From a virus (Duplodnaviria; Caudoviricetes): 64,000 nt of DNA. The stretch is taken from IMG/VR virus record IMGVR_UViG_3300032038_009890, positions 1 through 64,000 of that record. One strand, 5' to 3'. The stretch's first letter is position 1, and the number at the start of each line of letters is the position of its first letter. Positions 1,697 through 57,024 of the stretch are shown here, piece after piece. A program made the position numbers and the translations under genes. The notes under the pieces are model-generated. The model had not been told where the DNA came from, did no database searches, and saw only the letters and a program-made list of their open reading frames with translations.

Positions 1697-1710
1697 AGGG
1701 GTGAGGGAAA

Positions 1711-4700
1711 ATGCCTAAAGTAACACATCATAGTAGCGGCGAAGGTGTTGATATTTCTGTTTTATTACAAATGATGCAAGATGATATCGATGGTTCTAGC
1801 GCTAGTAGTAAAGGTGGTAAAGTAGATACAAAAGCGTTAAAAGACGCCATTAAAGGAATAAAAGAAGTTGGAGAAGCGGCAACTGCATCCGCGAAGGACG
1901 TAGATGAACTAGCTGAAGCAACGAAAAAATTTGAAGATACTGTAAAGAGATTCAATAAGCGATCTTCTTCGGAGTCTTTTGCAAAGACATGGTATACTGA
2001 TATTGACACAGCGAAGAAGGCGCTTACAGAAACAATAAAGGAATTCAAGGATTCTGATTTCTCGCTTGGAGATTTGGGAGATAAAGGAAATAAGGATTTA
2101 AAGAAGCAGATTCTTAATCTTAGCAATGTGTATCTTGCGCTTGGAGGAAATCTGGATGAGATACATGCTAAAATGAAATCATTTTATGATGAGCTTTCCT
2201 CACGTTCTGGAGATCTTGGTATTAATGTATCGACAGACCAGTTTAAACAATTTTTTGCTGAATTGGAGTCTCTTCCAGAAGAATATCAGAATCAGGTTAA
2301 TAGCTTGGGGAAACATATAAGCGAGGCCTTGCACGATGCTTCTGAGGAGGCAGTAAAGGCTACGGCTAAGATGAAGAAGGAAGTTTCCGACGCACTCGAC
2401 GAGCCTGTGATATCTTTGGATGATATTATTAATCTGGAGAGTGGTGACAAGGCTATAGGCAAGGTAAAGAAATATATCGGACAGCTTAAAAAGGCCATTG
2501 AGAAAGAGCAGACAAGTCTTACGAAGTATACCTTTAATCTTTCTAAATATGGCGCAAATAGCGATAGTTTAATGTCTCTCGATGAATCTAAAATAACCAA
2601 GATACATGATGATCTTCAAAAGGCAATGAATAAATATGGAAATAATTTAAAGGTTAAAATGGGAGACGGCAATGGAAATGATACGATATTGTCTCTTAGG
2701 GAAGCTTTTAGAAAATTAAATCCTGCCTTTTCTGATAAGCTTGGAAATGATAGTAAAATGTCCATGAAGGATATTACAAAGATTATGGAGTTTTCGTCAA
2801 AGAATCTTGATGAGTTAAATGAGAAACTAACACACACATCAAAGCTTTTAGATGATATCACAGAAAAGCGAAATCAGTTTGCTAATGTTGAGGAGATAGC
2901 AGAGAAGAAAGAGACGAAAAAGAGAGAACCAAAGAAAAAGGACGAAAAAAAGGTAAAAGAAGCATATGTTTCTAAGGTACTTAAAGGTACAGAAGAAAGT
3001 GCTAGGGGTGAAGCCAAGAAGGCCGCAGAAGCATTCTTTGAAGAGTTTAAGAAAGCGCTCCAAGCAGAGAAGAAGGATGTGAAATATCTTTATGAGTCTT
3101 TATTTGGTGAAGGACTGGACGCAAGTGTAAAAAATGCCAGAAAAGCAATGTTTGGTCAATTAACTGGCACACAATATACAAAGGTATCTGATGTAAAGAA
3201 CAATCTTCGTAATCTGGATGCAGACGCTTACGATAGTTATCTTAATGGAGTTTCTTCCGAAAAGACACAAAGGGAAACAGAAAAGAAAGTAGAAAAGAAT
3301 ATTGAAACATATAGAAAGAAGCTGAAGACTATTCTTGAAAGACCAAATACCAAAAAGAATTTGGATAAATCTGATATGCCAGAAGAGCTTTGGATTCCTA
3401 ATATTGCAAAGCAGATAGAAAGTCAGATCACAGATCAGGAAGATTCTATAGAGGCGGCGATTAAGGCTTTTCATGAAAGGGTAAAAGAGCTTACTGGGAA
3501 ATTTTTTGTTAAGGGTGATGGCGCTCTTGCAAAAGGTGAGTGGCTGACAGAGCAGGAGTATGAACTCAAAAGGCAACAAGCCGAAGAGAAAAAGAAGCAA
3601 CGTAAAGAGGCGGATGCAGAACAATTAAAGAAACAACAGAAAAAAGACCAAGCCGCCAATAATAATGAAAATGAGACAATTGATTCGCAAACTGCCCAAG
3701 CGACGGCGGATGAACATAAAGCTATTGCAAGCGAGAGAAAATCCCAAGCGGAGCAAGCAGAAGCAGAAAATGAGATTCTTGAACAAAAAGAAAAGAAACT
3801 GAAGTCACAACAACAGAAAGCAGAACAGGCCGAGGAAAACGCAGAAGAACAAGAAAAAAGTGCAGAGGAAGAACGCAAGAGGGCTGAAGCAGAAAAAGAG
3901 GCGGCAAGAAAAGAGAGAGAAAAACAACAGAAAGAAGCGGACGAACAAAATAATGGAGAGAATTCACAAAAACAATCGAAGCCGAAAGATACAACAACTA
4001 CTAAAACTGTTACAAGAGAAAGAGCAGATGGAAAGATTGTCTCGGAACAAAAGCAAGAGACTACTGGCGGGGCAACTACTGGGGGCAATGCAGGAGAGGC
4101 CGCGTCTAAAGTAAGTCAAGGCCTTACCAATGCAGGAGCTTCAGCGAGTACTGCTACATAGGGCGTGAATCAGCTTACTGAATCATTAACCGAGGCGGGG
4201 AAGGCCGCTGAAAATATTCAGATTAAGATTGATGTAGATAAGCTTATAGAGAAAACAAAGGGAAAACTGGCAGAGCTTACAAAAGGAACCCCCAGTGAGA
4301 ATATAGCAAATCAGTACTACAGTAAGAACTTAGACAAACAAAAGACATTTCTTAATTTTAGGAATGATTTCGCAACGGCATTTGATAAAGCTGTCGATTC
4401 TGTTGATTCAGCGCAAGGCATAATTAAGCTTGTTGGTGTCTTCGATAAATTAAAAAATAATTCTTTTGAAGTAGCCGACGCTATTAAAATGGTGAATGAT
4501 ATTGCTAATTCTGTACCATAGACTGTTGTCAAAAAAGAAGTTAGTAAGGAAGAGATTGTCAAAAAGGTTCAAAAGTTAAAAGAGTTATATGATGAAGTAG
4601 ACAATGAGCTATACAATAGAGAAAGTAATACATTCGTTTCTGAAAGCTCTGAATTATACGACAATGATGTAATTGAAAAATTGCTTAAAACCTTGGAAAG

Positions 4701-7700
4701 CTTTTCCGCAGAAGAATTAAAAGCTATTGGGGTTAATGATGATTTTGCAGATAGTCTATCGGAGACAATAAGCCAATACAGGGAGTTTAGTGAAGATTCG
4801 GTTAATTTTGAGCCATCTAACTGGGAGGATTTAACTCAACAGCTATTAGATGTTTACAAATATGTGGACGCAATTGTTAGCAAAGTGGAAATTCCTTCTG
4901 TAACGGTAGAAGCCCCGGTTGAAGCAGTAAATGAAGGTGTAACAGAGGGTGCAGACGAAGCAAAAGAAAAAGTTGAAGAAGTAAATGATAGCATAGATAG
5001 TGCTGTAGATTCTGCTAAGGAAAAGATCGAAACAATTCAGGATGTGATTCTTGAATTATTTGATGCTCTTGCCGATGGAATTGAGAACAATGATTATATT
5101 AGTGATCTATTCCCAGATTTTGGTGATGATAAAGCATCGATAAAAGAATTTATAGAATTATTTAATGAATTATCAGAAGCCGAGTTAAAGTCGGTTGTTG
5201 ATGATCCAAGTAAATTTATAGATTCTATCAAATCTCAATTTGAAGATTTAAAGTCGTTATATGATCAGATATCTAATGAAAAAGACGATAATGTCGCCTC
5301 TAGATTAGACGATACTTTTAGATCAAAATTCGAAAATTTTATAACATTTGCAGGAGAACAGTTTGACGTACTTGATGTACAAGAACTAAGCTATGATAAC
5401 ACTGCTGAAAATGCAGAGGAAAATAAGGAAGCATTAGATAATCAGGCTGAATCCCAAGAACATTTGAATGAAACAGAAGAGGCCGAGCCTGACAATTCTG
5501 AAAAGGTTGAGAAAGAGACAAAATCGAGAGAGGAATTGATACAGATTCTCCGGGAACAAGAAGATGCTTTGGCGGATTTACAGGCCAGAAAAGAAGCCTT
5601 AGATAAAGTATCAAAAACTATTGAAAAATATGCCACGCGGGATGAGGACGGTAATATTGATACAGAATGGCTATTAACACAAGCGGAAAATCATTTTAAC
5701 AGTGATAAAGATAATGCATTCGATAAAGCAGTTGCTTATTATGGAAAATATGCTGACGAATTTATAAAGCAAAATGGTGAGGAGTTTAGATAGGCGCTTG
5801 GGCTTGTTGGATATGAGGGTCGTGAAGAGCAAGATTCTGCCGAGATGTTGGAATTGTATGAGGAAATTATTAATGCAGATGAAACCATTCGTGATCTTGA
5901 AGAGCAAATCAGAGCTAATCGTGAAAAACTTGCGAAAATGCCCGCACCAGAGAAAAAGGAGCCAAAGAAAACTGATGAAGCCGCTGAACCTAAGAGGGCC
6001 GAGGAAACCGCAGATAAAGAACTAACTCGGTTGGAAAAGCTCCAGAAGGAAATTGATGAAACTAATGAAAAATATAGTGAGATGTTAGACTATTTAGAGC
6101 GTATTGATAATGCAAACAAAAAGATTGATTCAAAGATATCTGGAACAGGTAGTGAGAAATTAGCTTCTTTATTACACGGAACTAACGTAACATTTTCGGA
6201 GGGCGATGCCGAAGTTGCATCATTATTCTATAATAAATATTTAAAGCAAGCTCAGAAAATGGGCATTAATCCTACACATATATTTGACGATGAGGGTGCA
6301 GATATTTCAGATAATCTCATTAGAAAATATGATGAATTAAATCAAATGAAGCAAAAAGCAGAAGAATTACATAGAAAACTTATAGCACTGACACAAGAAT
6401 TAAGCAAAGCAAAGACTGAAGAAGCTGAAGCTACTAGAAAGACAACAAAAGAAACTAAAGACAATAGTGATGCAGTAGAAGAAAATACTGATAAGAAAAA
6501 GAAGAATAACGAGACAACTGCTTCTAGTGGGTCTGGTTCTGGCGTAAGCAAAAAGACTAGCGGAGGAAGCAGATCGTCAGGAAATGAACCAACAGATTTA
6601 GCCAATACTTTGTTTCCGACAAAACATGATATAGAGAATGAGAAAAAGAGAATTAGGAAAGCGTCGGGGGATAAAACTGATCGTTATTTAACAATAGAAG
6701 ACCCTTCACAGGATTTTGTTAATGATGTCACAAAGGAATTACAGCTTTTAATTCTTTATATGGAAGAACTTGGTGGCACAACTGATAAAGTTAAAGAGAA
6801 TTATGAAAGGTTTGTAAAAGAAGTAAGTGTTAAACCTAATATTAAAGGCCTAGATGAGTTAAGACAAGAGTTAGAGGATACTGGTAAATCTGCCATAGAG
6901 GAACTACAGGCATTTACACAAGCTAAGAAGTCAGCAGGACAAGGTGGTTCCGCTCCCGCTAAGCCAAAGCCCAGACCTGCTTCTGCACCAAGCGCCACTC
7001 CTGTATCAGCGCCTAGCTCCCCTGCTCAACCATCTGTTGTTCCTGGTGCCGTAGGCGAAGAAAATGCGGCCTTACAAGAACTCGACAAAGTGTTGAGAAG
7101 CACTATTCCAGAAGCTGTGCGCATTAAAGATGCCGCATTTATAGAAGAAAAAGATATAGTTACCGGGGCTATTGATAATGAGATTAGCGCTGTCAAGGTT
7201 CTGGAAAAGGAGCTTTCAGAAGGTGTGCCGAAGGCAATTACTCAACAAAAAGATGCTTTGAAGGAAAATACTGAAGAGGTTTCTCAGGCTGTTGTCGAAC
7301 CACAAGTAACTGCCGAACCAGAAGCGCAGGTTTCAGAGGATTATGAAAACCTTAGAGGATTAATAGCACAAGTAAGTGCCGAGATAGAGAAGTTGCGTGA
7401 GCAATTTAATTCTCTTGAGTCTAATGCAGGATTGAAAGCTGAGCAAGAACAATTAGTAAAGCTTATTGATATCTTAATGAATCAGATTCCCGGCGCAATT
7501 ATCATTAAGAATCGTGCTTTTATGAGCGAGAAAGAAGTTGTCTCTAGTGTTGTGAATTCTGAGGTTGAGTCTTTTAAGGTATTTGAGAATAAATTAACTC
7601 AGACTATTCCAGAAGCCATTGACAAAAAGAATGAAGCTTTTAAAGAAGAGGTTAGCGTTGTTAAGCAAACTGCGCAAGATGAGGCTGATGCTTTGGATCC

Positions 7701-10700
7701 TCTTGAACAAGTAATCCAAAGTATTAGTAGTAGCTTAAACTTTGATGTAAGCGTGTCAGGTACTGGAAGTCTTAGCAATGTAATAAGAGATATTAGGAGT
7801 ACTCTTGATTCAAAAACAATAGATTTATTTACTCATGAACTTGAAATATTATTAAGTGAAATTCAGCACTTTATGAGTGTAAACCTACGTAATAATAATA
7901 TTTTAACTGTGATTAATAGCATTGTTGCAAAGACAGATGATTTGCAGAGATTGATAGATATACTTCAGCATTCTGAGGCGCAAATTAATGCGGTTAATAA
8001 TGCGGTAAACAATGCTACTCCGAGCGCTCAGCCCTCTTCTGTAGCCGCGAATACCTCTTCTACCCCGCGCAAAACGTTTAAGCCGACTAAAAAACAAATT
8101 GCCGATGCGCAGAAACAGAAGAGAGATCAGAGGAAGCAAATCGAGGATCAAGAGAAGGCGAATAATGCAAGTAGATATGATGCGCTGACCAAGTCTCTTG
8201 ATGCTCTTACCGAGGCCCGTACCAAATATAATATTGCACTCGCCGAGTCTATAAAACGTGGAGATACTCTGCAAGCCCGCGAAATACTTTTAAAAGATGC
8301 AGAAGACAAAAAGACTGAAGCTATTAATAATGCAAAACAAGCAATGCTTGAACTATATAAGATGCAAAAAGCGGGGCAGATTACTCAGGAACAGTTTAAT
8401 AAAGCAATGACATCTTATAAAAAAGATGGAAGCCCGAAGTCATAGAGTGATCTCCAGAAAGCTAAAGATCAACAAAAGAAAGCACAAGATAAACAACTTA
8501 AACAGGAATGGGAAGCGGGTAAACAGGAATATTTAAAGAACCAGATTGCTTATTATAATGAATTGACGGAAGCTGTTAAACGTTATGTAGACATTATGAA
8601 GAGAGCAAAAGCAGGTAGACCAGAAGCAGACGATGCAACGCAATTACCTATTATTGAGGAAAAGATTAATCGGATGACGTAGGATACAGATGGCTACTAT
8701 TATGATTCTGATATGGAAGATAGGGCTTTGAAAGATCTTTATAATCTTGATGATATACTTGATCAAGTACAGCAGAAGATGGATAGAGCAAATACAATAA
8801 AATTCCAAGATAGTATGAAAAAAGCGCAGGACGCTATTTAGAAGTATTATGAATCTGCTGTAAAATTAAGAGACCTTTAGGAAGAGGCGGAAAAGAACGG
8901 TAGGAGTACTGATACAAAACCCATACGTAATGCTAGAAAGGCTATGCTGAAGAATAAACAAGATGCTGATAATTTGCTTGCAGGTGTAAATGGTATTGAC
9001 AGCTTCTAGGACGGTTCTGAAGCAAGGGCAAATTATGCTTCTGCCGAGTCTATATTTTCAAGGTATGGTGATGTTAAGTCACTGTTTGATGTGGTCGCAG
9101 ATCCCTCGAATGCGGTTGAGGTATATCATACTCTTATTAAGTATGCAGAAGAATATGTGCGTTTGACTACGAAGCAAGATTCTGGACAGACATTAATGCA
9201 CTCCGAGGTTGAAGAGATCACAAAGCTTAATGAATTGTACGATAATCTGAACAGAAAAACGACCTAGTATGCAAACAATTTACAGGGAGAAGATACGAAT
9301 CTCCCGCAAGAACTTGCTAATAGGTTAAGTGAAGCAAAACAAACCTAGGCCCAAAATCGTTTTGAAAATGTTGGTAAGAACCTTGACAAATTTAATTCTT
9401 ATGAAGATAATGCAAATCTGACTGTATGGTTGAATGATGTAAATCAAAGATATGATGATTTGAAGCAGAAGATAGATAGTGTTAACTGGTCTGGGACTAG
9501 TCAGACCGATCTTGATCAGGCCAAAGACGCTTTGCGAGAACTTAGTGATATGGAGAAAGAAGTTTCGTCTGCTTTGTCGAATGATAGATTCGTAAATATT
9601 ACTGATAAGCAGAAGAACACACTTTCTAGGCGAATGGCTGAATGGGCCTCGAATAACTCTGCGGCAAAGCACTCTATTGAGCAGATAAACGAATTACAGC
9701 AGAAATTACAAAACATAGATGATAAAGGTTCTCTTGAAGAGATTAGCAACGAGTTTGAGGCAATTAAGAGAAGAGCTTATGAGAGCGGTGAAGCGGGAAA
9801 GAGCTTTGGAGATAAGCTGAAAACGAGCTTTGGAAATCTTGGAAGATATCTCCTTTCGTTTGTAAGTATATATAAAGTAATAGACGCTATTAAACAAGGA
9901 GTATCTATTGTAAAAGAGCTTGACAGTGCGATGACAAATTTACGAAAAGTTATCGACGATACTGATGATTCTTTTGCAAACTTTTCTAAAGAGGCATTTC
10001 AAATTGCCGAAAGGCTTGGTTCTACTGCTTCATCGATAATTGATGCGGCAACAGAATGGGGACGATTAGGTTATAATCTTGAAGATAGCGCTAAATTAGG
10101 AGAGGCTTCAGTTATATATGCTAACGTTGGTGATATGGATGCCACTACTGCTTCAAATGATCTAGTTTCTGCTTTGAAAGCATATAATAAAGATGCTAGT
10201 GAAGCAATGCACGTAGTTGATATTTTAAATGAAATCGGTAAACATAAATTGCCGAATATAAAGATAGCTATATCGGTTAAAAGCTAATTAATAGTCGAGA
10301 CCGAGCAAAGACATATAATAAATATTATGTATGCGTAGAGACTGTAATGGTTTATATGGCAACATATAAATCTTCGCTATCCTCCATATAGGAGAATATT
10401 CAGTCCGTACTCACGATATATATATATATAAAACGTGAGAATATGCCAGAAATGACATGTCGCTAAATATTATAGTTTAGTAGTAACAACAAGAATAATT
10501 ATGCTGTTTCTAGCGCACAGCTTGGTGAAATCTTGGAAAAGGCTTCTTCAACATTAGCTCTTTCTGGAGATGGAATTGAGCAAGCTGTTGCAATGGGTGC
10601 GGCAATGCAAGCAATCGTGCAAGATGCTTCAGTAGTTGGACAAACATTAAAAGTTGTAGATTTAAGGCTTCGTGGAAGTAAAGTTGCTCTGGAAGAAGCA

Positions 10701-13700
10701 GGAGAATCAACTGAAGGTATGGCTAATTCTGTTTCTAAACTTAGGGGGCAGATTATGGCACTTACATCAGTTAATGGAAATCAAGGCATTGATATTATGA
10801 AGAATGACACAGAATATTATTCAATGTATGAAATACTTGAAAAAATTCATGCCGTTTGGAATGATCTTACTGATATTGATCAAGCCGGGCTTCTTGAATT
10901 GATGGCAAATGGCTTGCCATAATATATAGAAATATATATAAAGAACATTTTTAATTGCAGGTAAAACCTAAAGCTCTGCACCACAATAGCGGAGAAATCA
11001 CGCTATGAAGGTTTGAAAACGTAGAGATGTAACAATGGTAGTTCTGCAACTAAGCGCCCTAACGTAAAGCCGAGGGCGAAAGCTCACTGGCCAGACCCGT
11101 GTTGGGCTACAGACTAGAGAATAAATATCTGTAGCAATAGTCGTAAGGCGTAATCACAAAGACGTTGGTGAAAATCCATTAAATTGAAAAGGAATGCTCT
11201 CAGCACGTAATGGTGGAGATGAAGAAATGGTCGAATCTCATGTGAAAGCATGAGGTGTTTGTAAGAACACGTATGGCGTTGTGAACCATGTAAATATAAA
11301 TGAGGTAAGATTTTGCCTCTAAGATATGGAAACATATTTTTATGTACACATTTAATTGCGTTGATTACCTAAAGCTCCATGCCACAATAATCAGGAAACT
11401 AGATTATGAAGGATTAACAAGTTGGAGATGTAACAATGGTTAATTCGCAGGAAAGCGCCCTAACGTTATCCGTAGACCATATGGTATTAGTCGAGGGCGA
11501 ATCCCCAACGACTATCCCCTTTATCGGGGCTTAGAATAATGAATAAGAGTGGAAATCTCGAATATCTAAGCCAATAGGAGTACGGCCCAATCGCAAATGG
11601 GGTGAGTGAAAATCTCTTAAATGGAAATGGTGTGAACCCTACCGTGAAAACGAGGGTTTAAGAAATAGTCTTAACTTGTGCGAAAGCATAAGACTGTAAG
11701 TGGTATGTAATACGAATTGCAGTCTCACTTTGGTTGCGAAAAGTGAGGAAAAAATTGAAGAATCGGGCTTAGGGTCTAGCAGCGCTCCTAAACAACTTCG
11801 ACGAAGCAAAACAAGCTCTTGAAGATGCCTACAATGCTGAAGGTAGTGCCCTTAAAGAAAATGATCGTTATATGGAAAGTATAGCAGGCCATACCGCTAT
11901 ACTTCAAAACAGACTTCAAGAACTCGCGGCAGTAACAATCAACTCAGACTGGCTCAAAGATATCGTAGATCTTGGGTCGGGTGCAATAAAAGTCGTAACA
12001 AAATTAGTCGATACAATCGGTTCTGGAAACATTGCCGCAGGTGTTTTAATGGGTGCCATCGGAACGGCTAGTAAAATTGGACCAATCAATTATTCAAAAG
12101 GTAACGGATTTAGCATAGGTAATCCTTTTGCTACGAAGTCAGCAACTATAACAGTACAACAAGGTTTTGACAGAGGCGAAGCGTTATACGGCGCAATAAA
12201 TGATAAAGATCAAAGTCTTCTGCAAATGTATAATATTGCACAAGATGGTCAAAAAGCTAGGGATGTCATAGAAAGCCAGTGGGGTGACCTCGGCACATTC
12301 TTTGGTGGACTTAGCGAAGATGCACAAGAGCGCATCAAACCTCTCTGGAAATCGGTTGAAAATGGTTCTATGGAAGCAAAAACATTCGTAGAAAAAGCCG
12401 CCTATAGTGTCGGCATAACAATGAATAATACTCAAAAAGCCGCTGCAATAAACATGGATAAGATAAAAGGATTTGCCATGTCAACTGTATCAGCAATAGG
12501 AAATGCAGTTATTTCTATGGGAATCTCAATGCTTATTAGTGCAGGTGCAAGTCTTATTATGAATGCATTAGATGAAATTATTAATCACGCAGATAAAGTA
12601 TTAGAGCGTGGTGAAGAAGCCAAGAAAAAGATCGAAGATATATACAAATCAGTAACAGATGGACAAAAGAATATTAAAGACATTGCCATCTCTGTAAATG
12701 TAGATAATGCAAAGCTTAACACAACGAAACAGAATCTTGAGGGTATAGCAGAGACTTATGCAGATATGAAAAAAGGGGTAGATGATGTAACAAATGCGAA
12801 TAAGACTCTTTCTACTGAGAAATATGAAAAGTATCTTCAACTGAGCAAAGACCTTGCAGATCAATTCCCGAATCTTGTAGAAGGTTATGACTCTCAAGGC
12901 ACTGCAATTCTTGAGCTTAGTGGCAATGTCGAAACATGTACTCAGCAATTACAAGATATGTATGATGTCTCTTTGGATATTGCAAATCTAGAAATAACAA
13001 ATTCATTAGATAAATCTTTTGAAGCTATACTTCAGAAAGCGAAAGATACAAATAAAGAGTTGGTTGGACTCAAAGCAGAAGGTGATACATTAGATGAGTC
13101 TCTTGCTTCCGCAAAAGAAGGATATCGCATGCGAGGCGAGGAGAATCTTGCGTATGGAACTAGTTTAAGATTCCAGAATGGAGAGGTATATGATCAATGG
13201 CAAGCTATGTTCAAAGATTATATAAAAAAGACTGATCGAAATCAAGAAACTAAATTCATGGATAGTATTCAAACATAGGCGGATTCTATATTTTTTAGAG
13301 GATTAGACGATAAACCATTTTATATTCAGATACCATAGGAAGATTTCTACCAAGACCCAAATACTATATAGGCTATGCTAGATTCTCTTGACAAGGCACT
13401 TGAAATAACTGGAGACGCTGTTATTGGAGAATTGGAACATGAATCATCAGATATAAATACTAAGATTCGTGGAAAAGAAGGCGAACTGGCTCAATTAAAT
13501 AGGGATACAATGGAATTGATAACTAATTCTCTTACAACAAATTCAGATTTCATGAGTAATAATGAAACATTAGTGCAAGCAGTATTGTCTAATCTATCAA
13601 AATTTGACGTTAGTTCAATTGGAGATGAAGATCTTACTGCGTTTATATACGACAATATTCTTCAATACTTCGAAAAGATACCAAGAGAAATTCAAGATGG

Positions 13701-16700
13701 TCTTGCCGAGATTATGAATGGAGACTATTCTGATCTCAAATTCACAAAATATGAAAATACATTAAAGGATATGATTACAGGGTTATTTGATACCGAAGAG
13801 CTTCAAGAGGAGATGAAAAAGGAATTCAATATTGATGATATCTCAATCTTAGTAGATGATTTGATGGACCTGACGTCACTGGACAACAGCCTTGACAAGC
13901 TTGAAGAGAAGAAGTCAAATATAGTCAAAAAATTAGGTCATTTAGGCTTTAAATATGAAGATATGAAAGATTATACTATCGGGCAAATTATTAAAGGAAG
14001 TGATCTAGTTAACAGTAGAGCCGAGAAGAATAAACCCTATCTTTCAATCCAAGGATTCAACAATGACTTAGATAGAGAGACTGCACCTTTCGAAAATGAT
14101 GGTCTATTCTCCGATGTATTAAACGACGAAACATATAAAGCAAAGGCAGAAAGCCTTGAAAAGAATATTACCGCAATCTCGAATGCTATCGCGTCTGCGC
14201 TTGAAAATGGTGGTGTGGCAATAGGAGACGCTAGAACGGCGCTTCAAGACGTCATGGCAGATACGTTTAAGACATTCTCCACAGATGAACTTAATGCAGA
14301 GGGCCTTAAGCAAATCCAAAAATGGATGAACCTCCTCACAAAAACTGGCAGTGACAAATTACTTGGCGCAGATGGTTTGGAGTCACTCAAATCATATGCT
14401 CAAAATAGGATTATGAGTCAAGAGAATATAAAAGTTAGCGCAGATGAATTCATGACCATGTATAACAAATCTATAAAAGATGCCGCAATGAAGAATGGTG
14501 GTGGCACGTATGTTACCGCTGACGCGCTCTCAGAGGAATTTATGAATGAACTGCAAGATGAGGATAAGCGCAAACTTCTTTATACTCTTTATGTTACCAT
14601 GGACACTACAGAGTGGGATATTGAAAAATGGCGCGAAGAGTTTGATAATATTACACTTGACTGGAAACTCAAGTTTAATATTGATGATTTCACTAAGAAC
14701 ACAAATCTTTTAGATGAGACAATGAATCGTTTGCAAGGAGATGTTTCTTATCAGGATTAGGTGATCGCAAACAATAAGAAAAACGGAAAATATGATAGTA
14801 CGGCACAGATTAATCAAAAGATATCAGATACAAATGAGCTTATTAGTTTAAAGCGTGAAAAAGCGGCAAGCTATTATGATAAGAATAACGTCAACAGTAT
14901 TGCATATAAAGTCAGCAATGGTCAATTAGAATATGGCTCTGAAGAATATAGACAAGCTATGGAGCAAATGAAGAAAGACTTACAAGGTCTTGAAGGCGAA
15001 ATTGAAACTCTTGAAGCTAATATTGTAGCATACACAGAAGAGAGAATGCTTGTTCCTGTAAATATAATTGATGGTACATTAAACGAACTTAAAGGGCAAT
15101 ATGATCAATTTGTTGCTGAACTTGGCGCATATGGCGAAAATATTCCTAAAGACAGCGAACTACTTGATAATACTATTCAGAGTATACAAGATCAATTAAC
15201 AAATGAAAATCTTAAAGTTGAAATATTTGATGATATTTTATCACAAGACAATCTTACGCAAGAATTTAGGGATACAATAACTGCACTTAAAACTACTGCT
15301 ACAAACGAAATCAATACGCTTAATACTGATCTTAGCAAATATGTTGAGGATTCTGAAATTGGAGAAGATCAAATAGCTATTGTACAATTAAAATCACAAA
15401 AGGCAATGCAAGAAGCCGCGGCGACATTACTCGGAAGGGAATTAACTAAAGAAGACTACGAAGGATTCAATGAAACAGAAGAGGCATTGAAGGAACATTA
15501 TAACAATATAATAAGGATCGCCGCCCAAAAGAAGCAAGAAATTAAAGATGCAAACAATGGTACTCTTGAAGGATTAGACGTCGAGGCTAAAAATAATTGG
15601 GAGTATTGGGATAAAATTTGGTCTGATGCAGTATTAGAGAGTACTGAATCTCTTACTACGATAGAAAACAATAATAAAAATATCGAGCTTCTTCCTCTAT
15701 CTGAACTAGAAAGCCAATTGGCTGAGCTTGAAGAATCTGGCGAAACATTGGAAGCTACTATAAAGAGTATAGAGGAGACAGGAGATAGGCTTCCTACGGA
15801 TGAAGAATATGGTGCTGTTGTAAAGAGCTTAAATAATAGGGCGCAATTAAATAGTCAGCTTGCTTTAAGATATGAAGGTCTTGCTAAAACAGCTAGAACT
15901 AAGTCGGATCGAGAAGACTATGAAAAGAAAGCAGGATCATTTGCGCGAAACGCAACGACTCTTCGTGGTAATGCAAGAGGCTACATGGACAAGATGGACA
16001 AGAGAAGTATCGAATTCCTTGAGATTGATTTTGATCGAATTAATACTGGTCTTGACGATCTTGAAAAGGGCTTTGAAAATGCTAAAAGGCCTCTTACTGA
16101 TGGGGATTATAAACAAGCCCTTGACCTTATTTCAGATGGTCTTACAAATGCAGGTGAACAACAAGAATATTGGAATGCTCAGTTAGATAAATACGCCGAT
16201 GATAAATATTCTAAAAACTATACAGATGCAGAAAAGTCATTACTTGCCATTCTAAATGTCACAGAAATGTTAACAGCGTCACAAGAAAAATATAATAAGC
16301 TTCTTGCTGAGCAACCATTTGTTGATGTTAATAAAGACATTTCCAACACGCAAAGAGATTTAGAAAATTTTGATTTAGAGGTTAATCTTAAATTAGCAAA
16401 AGGTGGCATTAAAACAGATGATGATTTTGCGGAGGAACAAAAGAAATATCAAGACCTTGTAAATGAAAACTAGGCGGGAATGGACTCTGCTATGGAAGAA
16501 ATGAAAAAACAAGCTGGCATTCCTTCACCTATAGAATTCTTACGAGTGAGTCCGAAAGAAAGAGAAAAACTGGCGAAAAAAATGAAAAATGTTGACCTAA
16601 ACTTTATCAAAGAGCTTTCGGACAAATATGATGCTTATTATAAAGGAAGATTACAGGCGGAAACAAATCTTGCAAATAGTATCAAAGAACAAAATGATTC

Positions 16701-19700
16701 TGAACTTATTACAACAGAAAATCACATTGCAAGAATGACAGAAGAAATAGAAAAATATGACAAGATTATTTCGGATTCTAGTCATTTAGCTACTATGGAT
16801 GATTATAATAATGCATACACAGCTGTCGGTGAAAAGATTAAAGACCTTAATGTAGAAGCACAGCATTACCAAGATTTAATGGATAGTATGAAATATAATG
16901 AAGATGGAAGCATAAATGAGAATTTTGATGAGAATAATCAGCAGTATCAATATTATATTTCACAGCTTCAAAGCGCTAATAATGAAATAACAGAGTTAAC
17001 AGAAAAACAAAAGCAGTATAAGAAAGCAATGGAGAATCTTGGGATTGATAAGATCAGCAGGGAAATCGAAAACTATAATAAAAAGCTAAAAGATTTAAAA
17101 GACACTCAAGATTTAAATGCCGCCAAGGGTATAGACAAGACATTAGACGATTATAAAATGGAAGACAAATACTATGAAGATATTAAAAAAGACTCTGAAC
17201 AGGCGGCCAAAGATTTGCAAGATAAATTCAATTTTATGATTCATTGGCAAATCATGGACCCGGATTCCGCTGATGCAAAACAAATGAAAGATCAAATCCA
17301 AGGTTTCTTGGACCAAGCATTAAACGCAGATATTAATCTCGCTAATAATGCGCACGCTGAAGAAATATTCCCAATTACAGAACTGCAAAAGGATCTCGAT
17401 GAACTTGAATTAGCAGGTAATGAAATTCAACGAACTTTTGAGGATATTAAGAGGAGTGGCGATGACGTTGAAGATTATTCTGATTATACAGATAATCTTG
17501 AAAGTAGACGTACCATACTTGAAAATATAAAAGGGTTATATGAGGAATTATATAGCAAACATTCTGGTGATAGTTTTGGTGCAGAAATTCTTAAAAATAT
17601 CGACAGCGTAAATGCAAAATTACAGGCTATTGATCAAGAAAAATTTGATATTGATTTTGAGATTGATCACAAGAAATTGACTGATCTCCAAGAGGATATG
17701 GGATACTTGGAACGTGAGGCCGCAAATCTGCAAAATGCTTTGTCTAATCCTGAGAATACAACTATGTCTAAGGAAGATGTTCTTACCGCTATAATTAAGA
17801 ATAGTCAACAATCATTAACCAATCTTAAAGGGCAAGCAGATGAATATCAGCGCATTATGACCGAGATTCAAGAAGAAAATCCAGATGATTTCCTTAATAA
17901 CAATCGTTACATCGAGGCCGCAACAGGTCTGGCCAATATTGATTCTTAGATTGCAAACATAAATAGTACTTTAAAAGATACTAATAAACAGCTTTCACAG
18001 CTTCCTATCGAAAAGTTAGAAAAAGCACTTAAATATAATGAGGCGAATAAAAACTATGAAGACGCGGCTCGTAGTTATAAGGAAGCAACCGGTCATGTTT
18101 TAAGTCAAGATGATTATACTAGAAGTATCAATTTGGCGCGCGCGGATGTTCTGACAAACGAGGGTATCCTTGGTGAAAAGCAAGCAAACGTTGAACTTAA
18201 ACGTGCTACCCTTGAGTTTGCACAAAAGAATCCTACGCTGAAGAATGTTGAACTTGCGTAGGAAGAATATGAGACAGCTGTTCTTGAAGCAACAACTGCT
18301 CAAATTGCTGTGCTAGAATCGCAAACAGAAGTTTCTGATACACAAAGAAAAGCCCTTGAAGCTGAGCAAAATGTGTATCAGTAGAGAGTCGGCTTACTTA
18401 AAGTTTATAGTGATAATTTAAAGGCCGAGCGCGAATTAGCCGAAGCTCAAGGACATATTAGAACCAGAGATGAGATAGCAACTGATCGTTCTATTTCCTT
18501 GGAAAATAAGAAGGACTTAGAGGAACAGCGGGACGCTCTTAACGCAAATCATTCGGGGCTTACTCCTCTGGAATATGCTACTCAGAGATTGGCTCTTACA
18601 CAGGCTATCTATGACGAAGAGATGAATATATATAATCTCCAGGGTGAATTAGCTGAACAGCCTATTAAGGCCACAGAAAAAGCATTGGAGAATTTAAAGC
18701 AAAGCCATAGAGAAATTAAAGCCATGTCTGACTCTTTCTCAAATATGGGGAAAGAAATACCCACCGATATTCTTCAGCAAGGCCTGGAAAATATTCAAGC
18801 GCAGAAGTTCTAGGCAGGTGTTACAAGAGACTATTATAAGGGATTGGTTGACTTCTGGAAACCAGTTCTAGGCGAAAGCTCTATGCTTGTGAAAGGTTGG
18901 TAGGAGAAGTATCTTGACGCCAATGAAGAATATATTAATCTTGAGGGAGAAGAATATAATACGCAGAAAGCAATTGATGAAAAGCCATTTGAGCATCTTA
19001 GTAATGCACTTGAGCGCGTAAAACGTGAGCATAAAGAATTCACAGATATGATGGACAAAGGTGTTATTCCCAAGTCTGCTGAAAATTACAGGATTGCAAT
19101 TGAAGGCGCAACTGAGGAACAACAATATCTTATTGAGCAAATAAAGTTGACTAAGTTGGCTCAAAAAGATTATAATATTAACGATCCAGAATATCAAACT
19201 TTACAAAGCACATTAAATTCTTTAACAGATGAATATAACGCTTTAACAGACAGTATCAATAACTGGGGCGATGCAATAAAGAATCTTCCACTTGATTCCG
19301 CAATTAAGAACTTAGAAGAATTCAGAGAACAAATGGGCTTTAAGAATGATGATTTAAATAATAAAGTAAATCATGGTTATAGGATGACTGCCGATGATTA
19401 TAGTAAGCGCATAAGTGACAATGAATATCTTGCTAGTGAGGCGAGAAGACTTTCACAAATGTATGCAAAAGACACAGATCAATTAGAACGTGTAGGTTTA
19501 AGAGGAAGTCAAGAATACAAAGATGCATATGAAAATTATGAGAAATATAAATCTATGGCTGCTGATCTTGATGAGGAGATAGCGGTTGATAAAGATAATC
19601 TTAGACTTCTTCCAATAGACGAACTTAAACGTGAATAGGCTGAAATTCAATAGTCCTTTAATGCTATAGGCGACACTATTGAAGAACTTGAAACAAAAGG

Positions 19701-22700
19701 ACAAGAAGCGGGAACGGATTTGTTAATTGATCAGATGGACCTTATTGACAAAGAAGTCCTTAACCTTGAAGACCAACGTGACGAGTATGAAAAAGATTTA
19801 AATTATGCGCTAGAAAATAACTTACAAGATGCGGCAGATAATGCACGAGAAAACATCGCGCAAGTAGATTCTGATATTTCTAAGCTTACTAACAAGAAAT
19901 ATAACATAACAATTACTATTAGAAAAAAGGTCATTGATAAAATTAATAATGATTTAAAATTAATCAGTAATAATGCAAACGAACTCAATACCAAATTAAA
20001 TACATTGACCACAACTAGTGCAGGAAGAGAATCCATAATTGAAAGTTTAATAGAAAACGAAAAAGCCAATAGAAGAAGTCAAAAAGAAGCAATACAGTAT
20101 CATCAGAATAATTTAGCAAGGATTACTAGAGATACAAATGGTCAGGCAAACTATTATAATAATTCCGAATATAGAGCGTCAGTAGATGCAATGAACGAAC
20201 TTGAAATCGGTTTAATTAACACCACAGATAAAATTAATGAGTTATCAAGGGCGCTTAATCATTTACCATTGGATAGACTTCAAAAACAATTACAAGATCT
20301 TGCTAGAACAAGAGGAATTGTTGAATCACAAGATGAAATCAAGAAATTGCTTGGTGGCAGAGATAACTATGTACAGTTACTTAACATTGATATTGAAAGC
20401 TCGGATGTAGCTGATCAAGCAGTTAAAGATGCAAAAGAAATTATGGATAATGCATATGCCGAAACACAGAAATATAATAGAAACTCACCAATAGTTTCGG
20501 TACATGATTTAATCGAATAGGCTGATAAAGATTACGAAATTGCCAAACAGGACTATGAAGAAGCTTTACAAAATGCGAATAAAGCTGAAGCAACAGAACT
20601 TCAGTCTAAGATGAATCTGGCATATGAACCTGTACAACAATTACAAGATGGTCTAAAAGATTTAGATAATCAGGCAAACAGTGTTCTTAATGAAATAAAT
20701 AGACTTAGTGAACGTGGCGAAACTGGTACGCTTGAACAATATGAAAGATTAATTCAATTTGATAATGCACGAATTAATAATTTGGAACGAACTAAAGATG
20801 AATTAACGACTTATCGTAATACATTAGTCAATCTAATGGAAGAATATGGCATTTCCGAATATGCAAATGTTATTCTTCAGCCTATTGACGAGCAAATGAA
20901 TGAACTGGATGAAATGATTGCCGAATATTTTAATAACAATGTCCAGTATGATTTAATGAAGCACGGTGGAATTGAATTAGTTGGCCTAGAGAGAGTAAAA
21001 GCAAGGCTTGAGCGAGAGGCTACCTCTATTCAAGATGCCATTGGCTTAGCAGAAAATACGGGAAGGACTCCATCTATTGGATTATATCAGTCTGCAATCG
21101 ATAACAACGATCAACAAGCAAATAACTTAAGAAAGCGCATAGAATTGCTGAAAGAGCAAAATACAGTTCAGGGTATATCTATTGATGAGTATAATAAAAA
21201 TCTTGATCAGATTTCACAGTTTAGTTCCGAATTAGCTACAATCGAGAGTAATTCTTATCAATTCAAGCAGAAAATTGTTGCATATGCTCGTAATTTAGCC
21301 ACGGCTCTCAGCAGTACAATCAGTACCGCTATATCTGAATCGTTTAATAATACAGGAGTTTCTGCTTCTTCGATTGAATCCTTAAGAGAACAATTCTCCA
21401 CGCTTGAAGAAGTCTTTAATGTTAATACTAGTACACTATTCTACGAAACAGCAGAAGGTGTAAAACTGAATTCAAAGGCGCTCAGTGATCTAATTGCTAT
21501 TCAAAAGCGTTCTTATGGCAATGATATTCTTAAAAAGATTCATGATGAAGAAACCTAGATTAATAGCTTGACTACTGCCCTTAAAGAAAACAAAGATATA
21601 CAGGATGACGCGGATACATAGAATCTTAAGACGCACAAGAGGAGACTTGATGACCTTAAGCAAGAATTGTCTGGATACCAAGCTATCTTAGATGCTCTTG
21701 AGGAAGCGAATAGTCTCTATGCTCAATGGCAAAACGCACAATCCTCCGCAAATAAGGGAGATAAGTATGACGCAATTTATGAGAATCTTTCGAATTTGGA
21801 ACAGCATCTGGATGATGGGACCTTTAAAGACGAAGATTCTACATTTATAAAAATGCTCTCTAGGTATGGTATTGGCACCCCAGAAGAATTCGAACGTATT
21901 ACTCCACAATTACAAAGGTATTTTATGCAGGGCATGGATGGACTGCAAAACTTTGTAGATGATCTAGTGGAAAATGGATTTGCCACGATGCAAGACGGAG
22001 TTTATTCTATTAAGGATTTGGATATTTCGAAAGTAGCAAAGGCATTTGGACTTTCGGAAGAAGCCATTCAATACATATTTGATAAGCTTAGCGAGACTAC
22101 TGGTGCTGAATTTTTACAGCCAAAGGATGGTATTGATGCATTCTTAAAAGCACAAGAGAAACAAAAAGAATATATTGATGCTTGGAAGGCTTTACAATAG
22201 GCACAAAAAGAAGGAAATGCTGAGCAAGTTGATTACTTAGAAGGTAAGCTTGGAACATTAGCGTCTCAGATTGTTGATTTAAAGAATTACGATGGCGGAT
22301 AGCTGATTAGCCAAGAGGCCTTTGATAACGCAAAGGAAGAGATATTGCACTTGCAAAATATGGCTCGAAGCGGTTTTTTAGATGATGCGACCGTAGAGGA
22401 CGAGATACAAGGAATCGCATAGAGAGCAGGAATTGTGATGAGCAAAGATGGCCGTATACTTACAAACACACTTGAACAGGCCAATGAGAATCTTATGAAA
22501 TCTCTGCCAGACCTTCTCAATGAAGAGGAAGTGCCGATGAAGGTTACTTTATCCGATGAATCGCTCACAAGTCTGAGTGAATTGGATATGGGGCTTAATA
22601 AAGATTATTTAACTGATCAGGTTCAAGATGCATTCGATCAGACTGCGTTCAAATTGAATGTAGATGTTGCAACAATAGAGAAAGCAGATCATAGCAATAT

Positions 22701-25700
22701 AAGAGGAAAGACAACTTTGTCTGCCGATTACTATAAAGATAATGATAACAGAGTAGAAGTCTTTAAGGAATTGTTACAATCTTTTGCATCTAAGAAATAC
22801 GGAAATATTGATCTCAATAATCGTCAGTCAATGCCGATGGATGATGGTAGCATTGCTACTGTTCTTGGCAGTTGGGATAATAACTTCGTGGCAGATGGTG
22901 GTAATATTTCTGTTGCTTTTAGTCCTTTGCTTCAGACTGAAAATGGCCCCGTGTTGCTTAAGAGTGGTATAATGAATGACTATATTCAGTTATTATTGGA
23001 TAATGCATATGATAAGAACGGATTTAATCCCGATCTAGTATTTAACCTTGACAAATAGGGATTCTTATACAGACAAGTCGAAGATGCATTTGGTAAAATA
23101 TGGGATGAATTAAATATCAAGAATATGGTTGCAGGTGTATCTAAGGATACTAATATCGATGCACAAAACGCGGCGGGTATTATTGGTGATATCATGCACG
23201 AAAGTGAAGAAGGAACGTATGATAATATTTCCTATGCCGTTCAAAGAATATTGGATACTTTAAATGGAAATGAATCATTAATGTTTACTCTTCCTATAAG
23301 AACTAACGATGTTGAATTTATCAATATGATTCAAAAAGCATTAGATGAACATGGAGCATTTCCTATTAAGGTTTATCCTGTTATTCCATCTAGCACAGCT
23401 AGTTCTGCACCTACGTTCTCTAATGCATTTGCTGAGGGGACAAACAACGGTGAAATAACTCATAAAACAACAGCACTTGTAAACGAACTTGGTCATGAGG
23501 GAGTAATTCATAATGGCGTTCTCAGAGAGATTCATGGTGGAATGCATGAAGAAAATCTTAGTCCTGGTGATGTGGTTCTTAATGCTCAACAGATGGATCA
23601 GCTTAAGAAGACAGGCCGTGCGTCCGGTAAAGGGCGTGTAATTGGTGGAGCGAAAGCGTTATATGAGAAAAATGCTTATGCAGGAGGTTTATCTGGAACC
23701 TTCTCTATTCCGAGTAGCGGACTTACTGGAAGCAGTGCCGATTGGTCTCATTATATTTTCCGCGATGAGAAAAACCGTGGGCTTGATACTGTTATAGATA
23801 ATATTCCAAGATACTTGAATCAGCTTAATCGTACAATTCAACGTCTGGATAGTAGTATCTCAGAATATACATCTGCTTCTGAAAAACGTGAAATTCTTGA
23901 AGAGAAATACACTGCGATTATGAAACAGATTGCGGCAAACAATAAAGCATACACAGAATACATGGCAAAAGCCAATGAAATTGCTAATCAGACAGAATTT
24001 ATAGATAGCTCTGGAAAGAAAAAGACGATAGAGAGTCTTGCATCAAGATATAATCTCGAAGATCTTCGTAATGGTAAATTATCTTTGGATACCTTATCAA
24101 ATAACGAAAAAGATAAACAATATTACGAAATGGCACAAAAATATCTTGAGTGGGTTGACAAAGGTTAGTCTGCACAGGATGAAACATTCTCTTTACAGAG
24201 TACCTTACAAGATATTTATGAAAGCCTTATTGGTCTTCCATTCGAAGAGCTTGAGAAATCTTTGGATAAGCTTTCGAGCAAAATATCTGCTAATAGTGCG
24301 TTTACTTCTGCCGCCCAATCAGGTGAAGCAGGAGCAAGATTACTTTCTAACACATTATCTCAATATTTTGGCGAGGAAGGTGCAAGTTTATTTGATGCGA
24401 CTGGAAACAGCTATGAAGTACTTAATAGACTGTTACAAAAGAATGTTGAGCTTAAAAAGGAAGAATTAACTCAAAATATTGATGCCTTGAATCTTGCAAA
24501 AGAAGAATATGATAATCTTTTGAACGAACAGTCTTCTTTACATGGCGAATTAGCAACAGCAAAAGAGACTATCATTAATACTTTGCAACTTACAGAAGAG
24601 GATTATGAGAGAATACTTAATAATAAAGCAATAGAAGCATCTCATTTTGATCAGTACGAAGGCGCAGAAGATGTACTTAATGATTATAATCTTTTAATTG
24701 CGAAAGTTAATTCTTGTGATACGTCTGTAAAGAAATTGGGCGACGATATTGAAAAGAGAACATATGAAAACTATGCGAAGGCCGCAGAGACAAGTCAAGA
24801 AGTAATCAATATGATTGATTCTGAACTGTCTGCAATTGACAAGTACTATAGTGCAATTCAAAATCATACTTCTACTCTTAATGATGGTCTTGCCGCAAGT
24901 GCGGATTATATTACTAAGTGGTTACGCGTTAGTGATAATACAATGAATTTAATTAATAACTATACTCAGCAAATTGCTAACTATGCTCAAGAAGCTGATG
25001 TGTTAAGTCAAAACATTGCCGCGCAAGAAGCTTATTTGAATTCTATGTTAGCAAATGGCACGTTAAAGGTTACAGACACAGAGTATCTTGAGAGAATCAA
25101 TCAAATTAATTCTATGAAGAATACATTAAAAGATTATATTAATGGACAAAACGAAGCAACAAAAGCTATGATGGACCTTCCAAACGAAGTTGTAACCGAA
25201 AAACTTGCTGATATTGAGGCCGCATATAATTCTCTTACTACTGCCATGAATAAAAATATTGCATCCTCACTGTCTACAATTAGGGCCTATGAAAGAATTG
25301 CGGGAAGTAGCATGTTTACTACGACAGGGAATCCTCTTGAATATCAGTATCAAAATGCTCTTTCCGAGGCCGAGGTTCAGAAATTACAGCAAGAGGCATA
25401 GGTCACTATTGATGGTTATAACCAAGCACTCGCTAATTATCTGGCGGGTGGGACTCCAGAAGAGATGAAAATGAAAACGGAGGCTTTGCGAACGGCATAG
25501 ACAGCCATGGATGATAAAGTCATGGAAGCCGCCGTGAAAGCAGTACAGCTTTATTCTACTGAGATGTCAAATATCGAAAATTACTACAAAACTATTAATA
25601 GCTATATTGATACAGAAATAAATAAACTTGATATACGAAACGCTTCTCTCGACAGAGGTGTTGGATATGTCAGGAATAGCTATGAATTAATGGGTAACTA

Positions 25701-55599: not shown

Positions 55600-55810
55600 T
55601 TAAGCAGATATCAGGCTAGAAACTATGTTTATGTGCTACATCTATGTAAACAGTGGTGTTAACACTGGTGTTAAGGCTAATAATCAGGCCCCACAAAGCC
55701 CTGATATCAATAAGGTTTATTATTTACTCTCCATTCTTCTCATGGCGGAGATTTTGCCTGAAATTCAATCAGCATCGAGCATTTAAGAATTCGCAAGGTA
55801 TTAATATGTG
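55600..55810. other. probable attP region
   Basis: Non-coding gap between the late terminator and the integrase 3' end; tandem 12-bp repeats AACA[G/C]TGGTGTT (55649-55672); related GTGTTAA near 55808; - strand gene-tail-like SAMRRMESK** at 55717-55749. Confidence 0.55.
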
Positions 55811-57007
55811 TTAATCCTTATTAAATACATTGTTAACGCATTCTGATTTTTCAGATATACTCGACTTATCCTTATTGTACACTGTGGTCGTAATATAAGA
55901 ATTACTATGCCCCATTAATTTAGCAACTATTTTAGGATTCACACCGCTGTCCAGCAAAGTAGTACTATACGTTTTGCGGATTTTATGTAGTGGTTTATAA
56001 GTTATATTACAATTTCTGCAAATAATTTCCAATGACCTTCGAATAGATGCGGCAAACTTACAAAAGATATAGCCATCATCACTTTTGTATTCAAATAACT
56101 TATCTACAATCCACCAATAGTTTTTTGGAATCGGAATATCTCTTAATCCATTCTCTGTCTTTGGAGTGTCTTTAATATATACAACTTTCTTATCATCGAC
56201 CAACTGATAAGATGCTGTTCCTCTGACATGAATAACATAATCGTCAGAAATACTATCACGCTTCAGTGCGCACAACTCTCCAATTCTTAAGCCAGAAACA
56301 AAAATAAGTAAAATCCCAAGATAATTCTTATGCGGATTTTCGCAAATATACTTCTGAATCTTTTTAAATTCTTCATCTGTATAAACTTCATCGGAGTCAT
56401 CGTGCTTAATAACCTTAAATTGTGAACTAGAAATATCTAGTGTTTCAAATATCTCAGAAACAGAATATGATATATATCCCATCTTTTTAGCCCTAATTAA
56501 TGTCCCCTTAATTAATGCCCTGAGATTCCCAAATTGAGGCTTACACACTCCACTACAAGATTTTTCTAAAAATTCCTGCCATTCAAATACAGTAGTTTTA
56601 GATAAATCTTTTGTTCTTAATTTATTATCCTTAAAAAATCTTTTAAATATTTCAACATAAGCTACATGGGTTTTCGGCGCAATTATCTTGCTGTCAAGTC
56701 GATGGTTATTCCACTCCGTAAATACTTCTTCGAACGTATGCACGTTTTCAGTTTCTTCGTATGCGTCAACGATCGTATCTTCCAGAGCTTTTCTCGTAGT
56801 CTTGCACACAAGTTTCAAATTCTTCGGATATCCTTCGGCATGGATATAAGTGCGCCACTTCCCATCCTTACCCTGCCAGACTTTATTTGTATGCTTGCCT
56901 AATATTTCCTCTCGTCTAGTCATATCTACACCAGACCTGATATCTGCTAGATCGATGATACCATGTTCTAGTGCGTATTTCAATAAGTCATTTTCGTCAC
57001 GTTTCAT
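55811..57007 (-). CDS. int: tyrosine integrase
   Basis: GLRIGEL (R), HKIR (HxxR), LMGH and catalytic Tyr in TTTVY; no TAG. Confidence 0.93.
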   Translation of the reverse strand: MKRDENDLLKYALEHGIIDLADIRSGVDMTRREEILGKHTNKVWQGKDGKWRTYIHAEGYPKNLKLVCKTTRKALEDTIVDAYEETENVHTFEEVFTEWNNHRLDSKIIAPKTHVAYVEIFKRFFKDNKLRTKDLSKTTVFEWQEFLEKSCSGVCKPQFGNLRALIKGTLIRAKKMGYISYSVSEIFETLDISSSQFKVIKHDDSDEVYTDEEFKKIQKYICENPHKNYLGILLIFVSGLRIGELCALKRDSISDDYVIHVRGTASYQLVDDKKVVYIKDTPKTENGLRDIPIPKNYWWIVDKLFEYKSDDGYIFCKFAASIRRSLEIICRNCNITYKPLHKIRKTYSTTLLDSGVNPKIVAKLMGHSNSYITTTVYNKDKSSISEKSECVNNVFNKD

Positions 57008-57024
57008 ATAATATTCTCATTTAA

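What the first reader, a model, noticed from the sequence alone, without database searches (positions are those of the whole stretch)
10902..11772. Two tandem group I introns separated by a 4-nt micro-exon
Seen: two complete group I cores (10907-11302 and 11307-11757) with only AGGT between them. Joining ATGGC|AGGT|AAGAAT restores the frame and gives the TMP-like motif LELMAGKNRA. Each guide sequence pairs across its own ligated junction: GCTTGCCAT with ATGGCAGGT, and TTTTGCCT with AGGTAAGA. The micro-exon therefore serves as P10 of intron 2 and P1 of intron 3. P1 of intron 3 gains a further pair from the terminal G of intron 2 (GAGGT/GCCTC). Inference: the two ribozymes compete for the same four nucleotides, so splicing should be ordered or coupled. 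Skipping the micro-exon would frameshift about 70% of an essential virion protein. I know of no phage precedent for so short an exon, but could not search.
Basis: partly seen in the sequence, partly recalled or inferred. Interest (0 to 1): 0.95.

Follow-up and report, generated by a model that had tools for sequence, protein, structure and literature searches.

The report
Four-base exon between two phage ribozymes
A giant phage tail gene is cut by two self-splicing introns only four bases apart, so both RNA enzymes must grip the same four bases in turn; the layout recurs in two other phages and is the tightest I could find outside mitochondria, but splicing and its order were not observed.

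Summary
Observation confirmed. A TAG=Gln-recoded, SPbeta-like tape-measure gene carries group I introns at 10907-11302 and 11307-11757 with only AGGT between them. Splicing both restores an open frame and the homologues' AGK motif. Two other phages have the same AGGT tandem; a 95%-identical relative of one has only the first intron; others have only the second or neither. So these are two separately mobile introns at adjacent sites of a TMP hot spot. Coupling is only predicted. In this phage one base (C11319) pairs with intron 2's terminal G and would favour skipping if intron 2 left first, so the downstream intron probably goes first. That base is not conserved in the other tandems, so order is not a general rule. 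Intron 2 has a C-G splice-site pair, the commonest pair in this family, and an unusual G-binding pocket. Precedents: Twort 23 nt, Coxiella 34 nt, mitochondrial 1-3 nt. This scan earlier noted 6-25-nt phage micro-exons on other DNA. New variant of a known kind.

The parts
1711..10239 (+). TMP exon 1 (TAG read as Gln)
   Evidence: ORF 1705-10287 under TAG=Q; PF10145 at its end
10240..10493 (+). Intron 1 (254 nt, a different intron type, no ORF)
   Evidence: joining gives EIG|NNYAVS as in intron-free homologues; relatives at other TMP sites
10494..10906 (+). TMP exon 2 (413 nt), ends inside an Ala codon (GC|A)
   Evidence: PF10145; 37-56% identity to full-length-matching TMP homologues
10907..11302 (+). 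Intron 2: group I, IA-like, no ORF, C-G pair at the 5' splice site, terminal G at 11302
   Evidence: RF00028 E 3.7e-7; orthologues at the same site in L301, L302, L287 with compensatory P1 changes
10912..10920 (+). Guide sequence of intron 2: pairs with 10902-10906 (P1) and with the micro-exon (P10)
   Evidence: 9 of 9 pairs, shuffle p 0.0015; hairpin predicted
11087..11093 (+). P7 5' strand of intron 2; G-binding pair G11089-C11232, with bulged U11088 and G11090.U11231
   Evidence: this combination in 1 of 90 family introns
11303..11306 (+). 4-nt micro-exon AGGT: last base of Ala plus the Gly codon
   Evidence: restores frame and the AGK motif; same four bases between orthologous introns in L301 and L287
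11307..11757 (+). Intron 3: group I, IA-like, no ORF, U.G 5' splice site, consensus P7, terminal G at 11757
   Evidence: RF00028 E 3.9e-7; site occupied alone in many phages
11311..11319 (+). Guide sequence of intron 3; C11319 pairs with G11302 in the precursor
   Evidence: 8 of 8 pairs, shuffle p 0.0026
11758..30599 (+). TMP exon 4 (starts K-N-R-A; 3' end inferred)
   Evidence: ORF 11692-30717 under TAG=Q; homologue alignment
30600..30997 (+). Probable intron 4 of the same gene (5' boundary inferred from a U.G P1 and the frame)
   Evidence: core motifs in the sequence; in-frame join gives 10,136 aa
30998..33620 (+). TMP last exon (inferred)
   Evidence: ORF 30996-33620

Best explanation
Two separately mobile group I introns of one TMP-resident family have settled at neighbouring sites (Ala GC|A and Gly|Lys) of a conserved intron hot spot, isolating AGGT as a coding exon [shown at DNA level by comparison]. 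Each is excised by its own core in two rounds of standard group I splicing, and AGGU is kept [inferred]. AGGU is needed as P1 of intron 3 and as P10 of intron 2, so intron 3's reaction and the second step of intron 2 cannot overlap [follows from the pairings]. In this phage the favoured order is intron 3 first: its P1 hairpin forms locally and sequesters intron 2's terminal G; intron 3 has the canonical U.G site and G pocket, while intron 2 has C-G and a variant pocket and is probably slower; and the opposite order gives an intermediate in which intron 3's guide prefers a register four bases upstream, which would delete AGGU [predicted only; about 0.55]. This is a kinetic bias in one genome, not a conserved switch. 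Some skipping is likely and tolerated, as TMP is needed in few copies per virion [own knowledge].
For: Frame and AGK motif restored. Natural allele series: no intron (L005-L029, P0002, P0006), first intron only (L302, L182, L117), second only (L031, L034, L065, L073, L119 and others), both (window, L301, L287). L301 and L302 are 95.3% identical over 729 nt and differ by the whole second intron. P1 of intron 2 covaries A-U to G-C and G-C to A-U. The two introns fall in different well-supported clades with singletons or orthologues of their own site. Cross-pairing of the two cores breaks P6 and P7 and weakens P3 (-2.7 against -4.6 and -6.0 kcal/mol), which argues against one fused ribozyme. Local folding: terminal G paired p=1.00 in the precursor; after intron 2 removal the skipping register has p=0.77 against 0.23; with the common guide base G these become 0.01 and 0.99.
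Against: No splicing was observed. The order rests on 32-nt folds without tertiary docking. The terminal-G pair is absent in both other tandems, and a single intron behind a Gly-Gly exon has the same guide base (L306), so C11319 may be inherited rather than adapted. Intron 2's guide also pairs with exon 4 directly (-12.1 against -13.6 kcal/mol), so skipping by intron 2 is not excluded. A C-G mutation inactivates the Tetrahymena intron (as stated in Williams 2020, 10.1101/2020.01.27.920355), and intron 2's P7 is unique among 90 relatives. The AU test did not reject the two introns being sisters (p 0.105).
Confidence: 0.7

Rival explanations
1. Same two introns and same product, but no meaningful order: both routes run, the P1 hairpin opens fast enough, and C11319 is neutral or inherited.
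For: The lock base is missing in L301 and L287, which persist with the same exon. Both intermediates occur at the placozoan 1-nt exon (PMC5436844). The same guide base occurs in a single intron.
Against: In this genome the hairpin is -8.3 kcal/mol and includes the terminal G; the intron-2-first intermediate is predicted to mis-register.
Confidence: 0.3
2. Intron 2 is crippled here (C-G splice site, bulged U and G.U in the G pocket, A.C in P6). It needs a protein helper, or this proviral TMP gene is no longer expressed.
For: P7 variant in 1 of 90 family introns; the record is a provirus; C(-1)-G introns have not been shown to splice (Williams 2020).
Against: The G-binding G-C pair and all core helices are intact. 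C-G is the commonest splice-site pair in this family, 27 of 52, at many sites of an essential gene. The ~30-kb coding sequence has no other lesion.
Confidence: 0.12
3. The whole 10911-11757 block is removed as one unit, giving the in-frame variant MANKNRA; AGGT is not an exon.
For: This join is in frame and follows a U; an automatic exon-score search that allowed only one excision picked it.
Against: It has no P1, it replaces the Gly that most homologues have at this place, and single-intron alleles fix both boundaries.
Confidence: 0.03
4. Skipping is a programmed switch between a full-length and a ~2,990-aa truncated TMP.
For: Skipping pairings are energetically close to the correct ones. Skipping is documented for Twort orf142 and phage SIOphi (PMC10136302, PMC11878797).
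Against: Close relatives lack one or both introns, so no isoform is conserved; the skipping register is weak in L287 (p 0.02).
Confidence: 0.05

Closest known systems
Staphylococcus phage Twort orf142 introns I2/I3 (Landthaler and Shub 1999, as summarised in PMC10136302 and PMC11878797)
   Same: Phage tail gene; two similar group I introns around a short exon; skipping is a risk.
   Different: The Twort exon is 23 nt, long enough for separate P10 and P1 segments; here 4 nt are shared entirely. Twort splicing and skipping are shown by RT-PCR; here nothing is shown.
Placozoan cox1 single-base exon between two group IB introns (PMC5436844) and the 3-nt fungal mitochondrial mini-exon (Cummings 1990, cited in PMC8971849)
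   Same: An exon shorter than the guide pairings, made by a second intron inserting next to the first.
   Different: Mitochondrial, other subgroup; both intermediates seen in Placozoa. Here a phage mRNA with all four natural alleles available.
TMP-IVS1/2/3 group I introns of Bacillus cereus-group prophages (PMC2504315) and the three-intron TMP of Vibrio phage ICP1 (PMC10448857)
   Same: TMP as an intron hot spot; related introns adapt to new sites through P1; many lack an endonuclease gene.
   Different: I found no exon near 4 nt in the passages read. I did not test whether these published introns belong to the family found here.
Coxiella burnetii 23S rRNA introns with a 34-nt exon, and engineered tandem Tetrahymena introns with a 24-nt exon (PMC10136302)
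   Same: Defines the two skipping routes relevant here: one fused ribozyme, or the second intron using the first junction as a distal 5' splice site.
   Different: Longer exons; rRNA or reporter context.
Leu.3Cg tRNA introns (Williams 2020, 10.1101/2020.01.27.920355)
   Same: Watson-Crick C(-1)-G pair in place of the U.G wobble, as in intron 2; splicing untested.
   Different: One tRNA site in Proteobacteria. Here C-G, U-A and U.G all occur in one phage mRNA intron family at many sites.

Membership tests
Group I intron | Core helices P3-P8 | tested here: met
   Full-length RF00028 alignment for both, E about 4e-7 but 37.5 bits, under the cut-off of 50; P3, P6, P7 pair
Group I intron | G-binding G-C pair in P7 | tested here: met
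   G11089-C11232 and G11510-C11670; the neighbours are non-consensus in intron 2
Group I intron | Terminal G before the 3' splice site | tested here: met
   G11302 and G11757; same junctions in L302 and L301
Group I intron | Internal guide forming P1 and P10 | tested here: met
   9/9 and 8/8 pairs; compensatory changes in orthologues
Canonical (U.G) group I intron | U(-1).G wobble at the 5' splice site: intron 3 | tested here: met
   U11306.G11315
Canonical (U.G) group I intron | U(-1).G wobble at the 5' splice site: intron 2 | tested here: not met
   C10906-G10916. Intron 2 is therefore filed as a C(-1) variant that works like a group I intron, not as a canonical one
Group I intron | Guanosine-initiated self-splicing | not testable with these tools
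   needs RNA data or an in vitro assay
Subgroup IA (phage type) | Extra hairpins between P7 and P3 | tested here: met
   insert of about 100 nt at that place in both Rfam alignments; IA1 versus IA2 not resolved
Mobile intron with homing endonuclease | Intron-encoded endonuclease ORF | tested here: not met
   longest ORFs 19 and 40 aa; the intron-3 orthologue in L287 carries a long ORF
Twintron (nested introns) | One intron lies inside another and no coding base lies between | tested here: not met
   the four bases are coding and each intron occurs alone elsewhere
Twort-type exon-skipping tandem | Skipped product formed | tested here: inconclusive
   fused-core route looks blocked; distal-site routes look feasible on energy
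Phage tape measure protein (PF10145) | PhageMin_Tail domain continuous across the splice junctions | tested here: met
   profile positions 3-85 and 90-196 on exons 1 and 2; colinear with intron-free homologues

The most novel reading that the evidence does not exclude
A natural, protein-free splicing-order lock: the downstream ribozyme's guide captures the upstream intron's terminal G through one base, so an essential mRNA is made only when two ribozymes that share four nucleotides react in a fixed order. It sits in a phage intron family that has largely dropped the U.G wobble at the 5' splice site.
Probability: 0.35. Interest if true: 0.8.

Novelty: new variant of a known kind. Interest (0 to 1): 0.62.

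Why it matters
It is the shortest exon between group I introns that I could find for a phage or bacterium (published: 23 and 34 nt), and short enough that P10 of one intron and P1 of the next are the same bases. PMC10136302 states that natural tandem group I splicing had no mechanistic analysis. Here all four natural alleles exist, and three tandems differ at one guide base that is predicted to change order and skipping, so the question can be tested in a tube. The family also offers many natural C-G and U-A splice sites for testing how necessary the U.G wobble is. In practice, gene finders and Rfam's cut-off miss these introns and split a 10,000-aa gene.

Tried and rejected
Sequencing runs: no RNA holder was listed; this is no evidence either way, and no reads were laid. 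Rfam at the gathering threshold finds nothing in the window; only the E-value mode shows the introns. The Twort primary paper is not held; exon sizes come from PMC10136302. Two junction-pattern scans and one further scan found no more tandems beyond L269/L301; these patterns are narrow, so this does not bound the frequency. Assembly artefact: rejected, because independent assemblies show the same layout with 72-83% intron identity. Local duplication of one intron: disfavoured by the tree and by site-specific singletons but not rejected (AU p 0.105). Single excision giving MANKNRA: rejected (see rivals). Paper searches for phage micro-exons and natural C-G sites gave little; subscription journals are not covered. 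The automatic splice-site calls include about 7 of 52 likely one-base slips, and near-identical introns are counted separately, so the counts are not independent events.

Full report
Context. The window is the first 64 kb of a 217-kb provirus record. Under the standard code the region breaks into pieces; with TAG read as Gln it becomes ORFs of 2860, 151, 6341 and 874 codons. The TAG right after the junction aligns with Gln in homologues (KNRAQG), and the genome holds an intron-split tRNA with a CUA anticodon. The ORF pieces around 9.9-10.9 kb carry consecutive parts of the tape-measure domain PF10145. Homologous genes lie beside SPbeta-type tail genes (YomU, YomW, YomN).

The observation. Exon 2 ends at 10906, intron 2 runs 10907-11302, AGGT follows, and intron 3 runs 11307-11757. 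Both introns align over the whole RF00028 model at E about 4e-7, below the curated cut-off. Removing introns 1-3 gives 9301 open codons; omitting AGGT stops at codon 2992. A fourth intron near 30600-30997 extends the product to about 10,136 aa, so skipping loses about 70%. Intron-free homologues read AGK or GGK here. Each guide pairs across its own ligated junction, 9 of 9 and 8 of 8, with shuffle p of 0.0015 and 0.0026.

Comparative evidence. DNA-pattern scans showed a family of related introns at more than a dozen sites in this TMP core. The Gly|Lys site of intron 3 is occupied alone in many phages. The Ala site of intron 2 is occupied without a neighbour at the Gly|Lys site in L302, L182 and L117. 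Two other phages have the same tandem with the same four bases: L301 (G001) and L287. L301 and L302 are 95.3% identical over 729 nt of exon 2 and the first intron; L301 has the second intron, L302 continues straight into exon, and both encode AGKTRAAA after splicing. This fixes both boundaries without relying on the window. P1 of intron 2 covaries across the three lineages. In a tree of 65 family introns, intron 2 groups with its orthologues (99/99) and intron 3 with site-3 introns (98/94); a tree forcing them together is 54 log units worse but not rejected (p 0.105). The simplest history is two separate acquisitions by homing or recombination [inference]. Neither intron has an ORF here, but the intron-3 orthologue in L287 does.

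Odd features of intron 2. Its 5' splice site is C-G. That is usual in this family: of 52 well-scored introns, 27 have C-G, 11 U-A, 7 U.G and 7 are probable slips of the automatic call. A C(-1) type is known from tRNA-Leu introns, where splicing is untested and the same change is said to inactivate the Tetrahymena intron (Williams 2020). Its P7 keeps the G-binding G-C pair but has a bulged U and a G.U next to it, seen in 1 of 90 family members. This suggests a slower ribozyme [inference]; a dead one is possible but less likely, given an otherwise unbroken 30-kb frame.

Mechanism. AGGU cannot be in P1 of intron 3 and P10 of intron 2 at once. In the precursor the intron-3 hairpin is -8.3 kcal/mol and holds G11302 paired with C11319 (p 1.00), which would keep that G out of intron 2's pocket for step 2. 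If intron 2 did leave first, intron 3's guide would prefer the C four bases upstream (p 0.77 against 0.23), a C-G site that this family appears to accept, deleting AGGU. That is the stepwise skipping route shown for engineered tandems (PMC10136302). With the common guide base G, the correct register wins 0.99 to 0.01 and the terminal G is free; L301 and L287 behave this way (0.87 and 0.98 correct). So the three tandems seem to solve the problem differently: this genome by intron 3 first, the others by an extra pair after intron 2 leaves. The fused-ribozyme route proposed for Twort looks blocked here because cross-pairing breaks P6 and P7, but is nearly open in L301. A third route, intron 2 joining exon 2 to exon 4, has a workable P10. 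All of this comes from short-fragment folding and is a prediction. C11319 may be inherited, since a single intron behind a Gly-Gly exon has it too.

Comparison with what is known. Tandem group I introns with short exons are known from Twort orf142 (23 nt) and Coxiella 23S rRNA (34 nt) (PMC10136302), and skipping or a small exon from Bastillevirinae phages (PMC11878797). TMP introns are known from B. cereus prophages (PMC2504315) and ICP1 (PMC10448857). Exons of 1 and 3 nt between mitochondrial introns are published (PMC5436844, PMC8971849), and the placozoan case showed both intermediates. Earlier notes of this scan list phage micro-exons of 6, 9, 13, 16, 19 and 22 nt on other DNA; I did not check those loci. 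I found nothing as short as 4 nt for a phage or bacterium.

Verdict. The feature is real, recurrent and well bounded. It works like two group I introns in series. Intron 3 is canonical; intron 2 is a C(-1) variant. The new aspects are the complete overlap of P10 and P1 in a phage mRNA, the natural allele series, and a one-base difference predicted to set the order. Splicing, order and skipping rate were not observed. New variant of a known kind; interest 0.62.

Noticed in passing
loci L030-L289, TMP core: The intron family uses C-G (27), U-A (11) or U.G (7) at the 5' splice site among 52 scored introns; all three pair types occur at the same Gly|Lys site. I found no paper on U-A sites or on a phage family like this.
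   Followed up: partly
L109, L169, L138, L208, L182, L215: Other likely tandems in the same TMP core with exons of about 25, 16 and 14 nt. Two further sites (L149, and L140/L206) lie only 2 nt apart but were not seen occupied together.
   Followed up: partly
window 10240-10493: Intron 1 (254 nt) is missed by Rfam even in E-value mode and belongs to a different type with relatives at other TMP sites (L034, L065, L099).
   Followed up: partly
window 30600-30997: A fourth group I-like intron near the end of the TMP gene; removal gives a product of about 10,136 aa, an extremely long tape-measure protein.
   Followed up: partly
L001:1483-1767 (G000 near 177.9 kb): A tRNA with CUA anticodon interrupted by a 197-nt group I intron (ARAGORN with introns allowed; RF00028 53.5 bits): the likely TAG suppressor depends on splicing.
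   Followed up: partly
L301 1042-1499 versus L302: About 60 nt of exon downstream of the second intron differ at many synonymous positions between two otherwise 90-95% identical phages, and the Gly codon is GGT with the intron and GGA without: looks like a co-conversion or recombination tract.
   Followed up: no
L301: In this tandem the two cores have nearly interchangeable P3, P6 and P7, so it is the best candidate for Twort-type skipping by a fused ribozyme.
   Followed up: partly
window 55800-64000: GC skew and gene strand switch at about 56 kb; ORFs beyond it have few or no in-frame TAG, unlike the structural genes.
   Followed up: no
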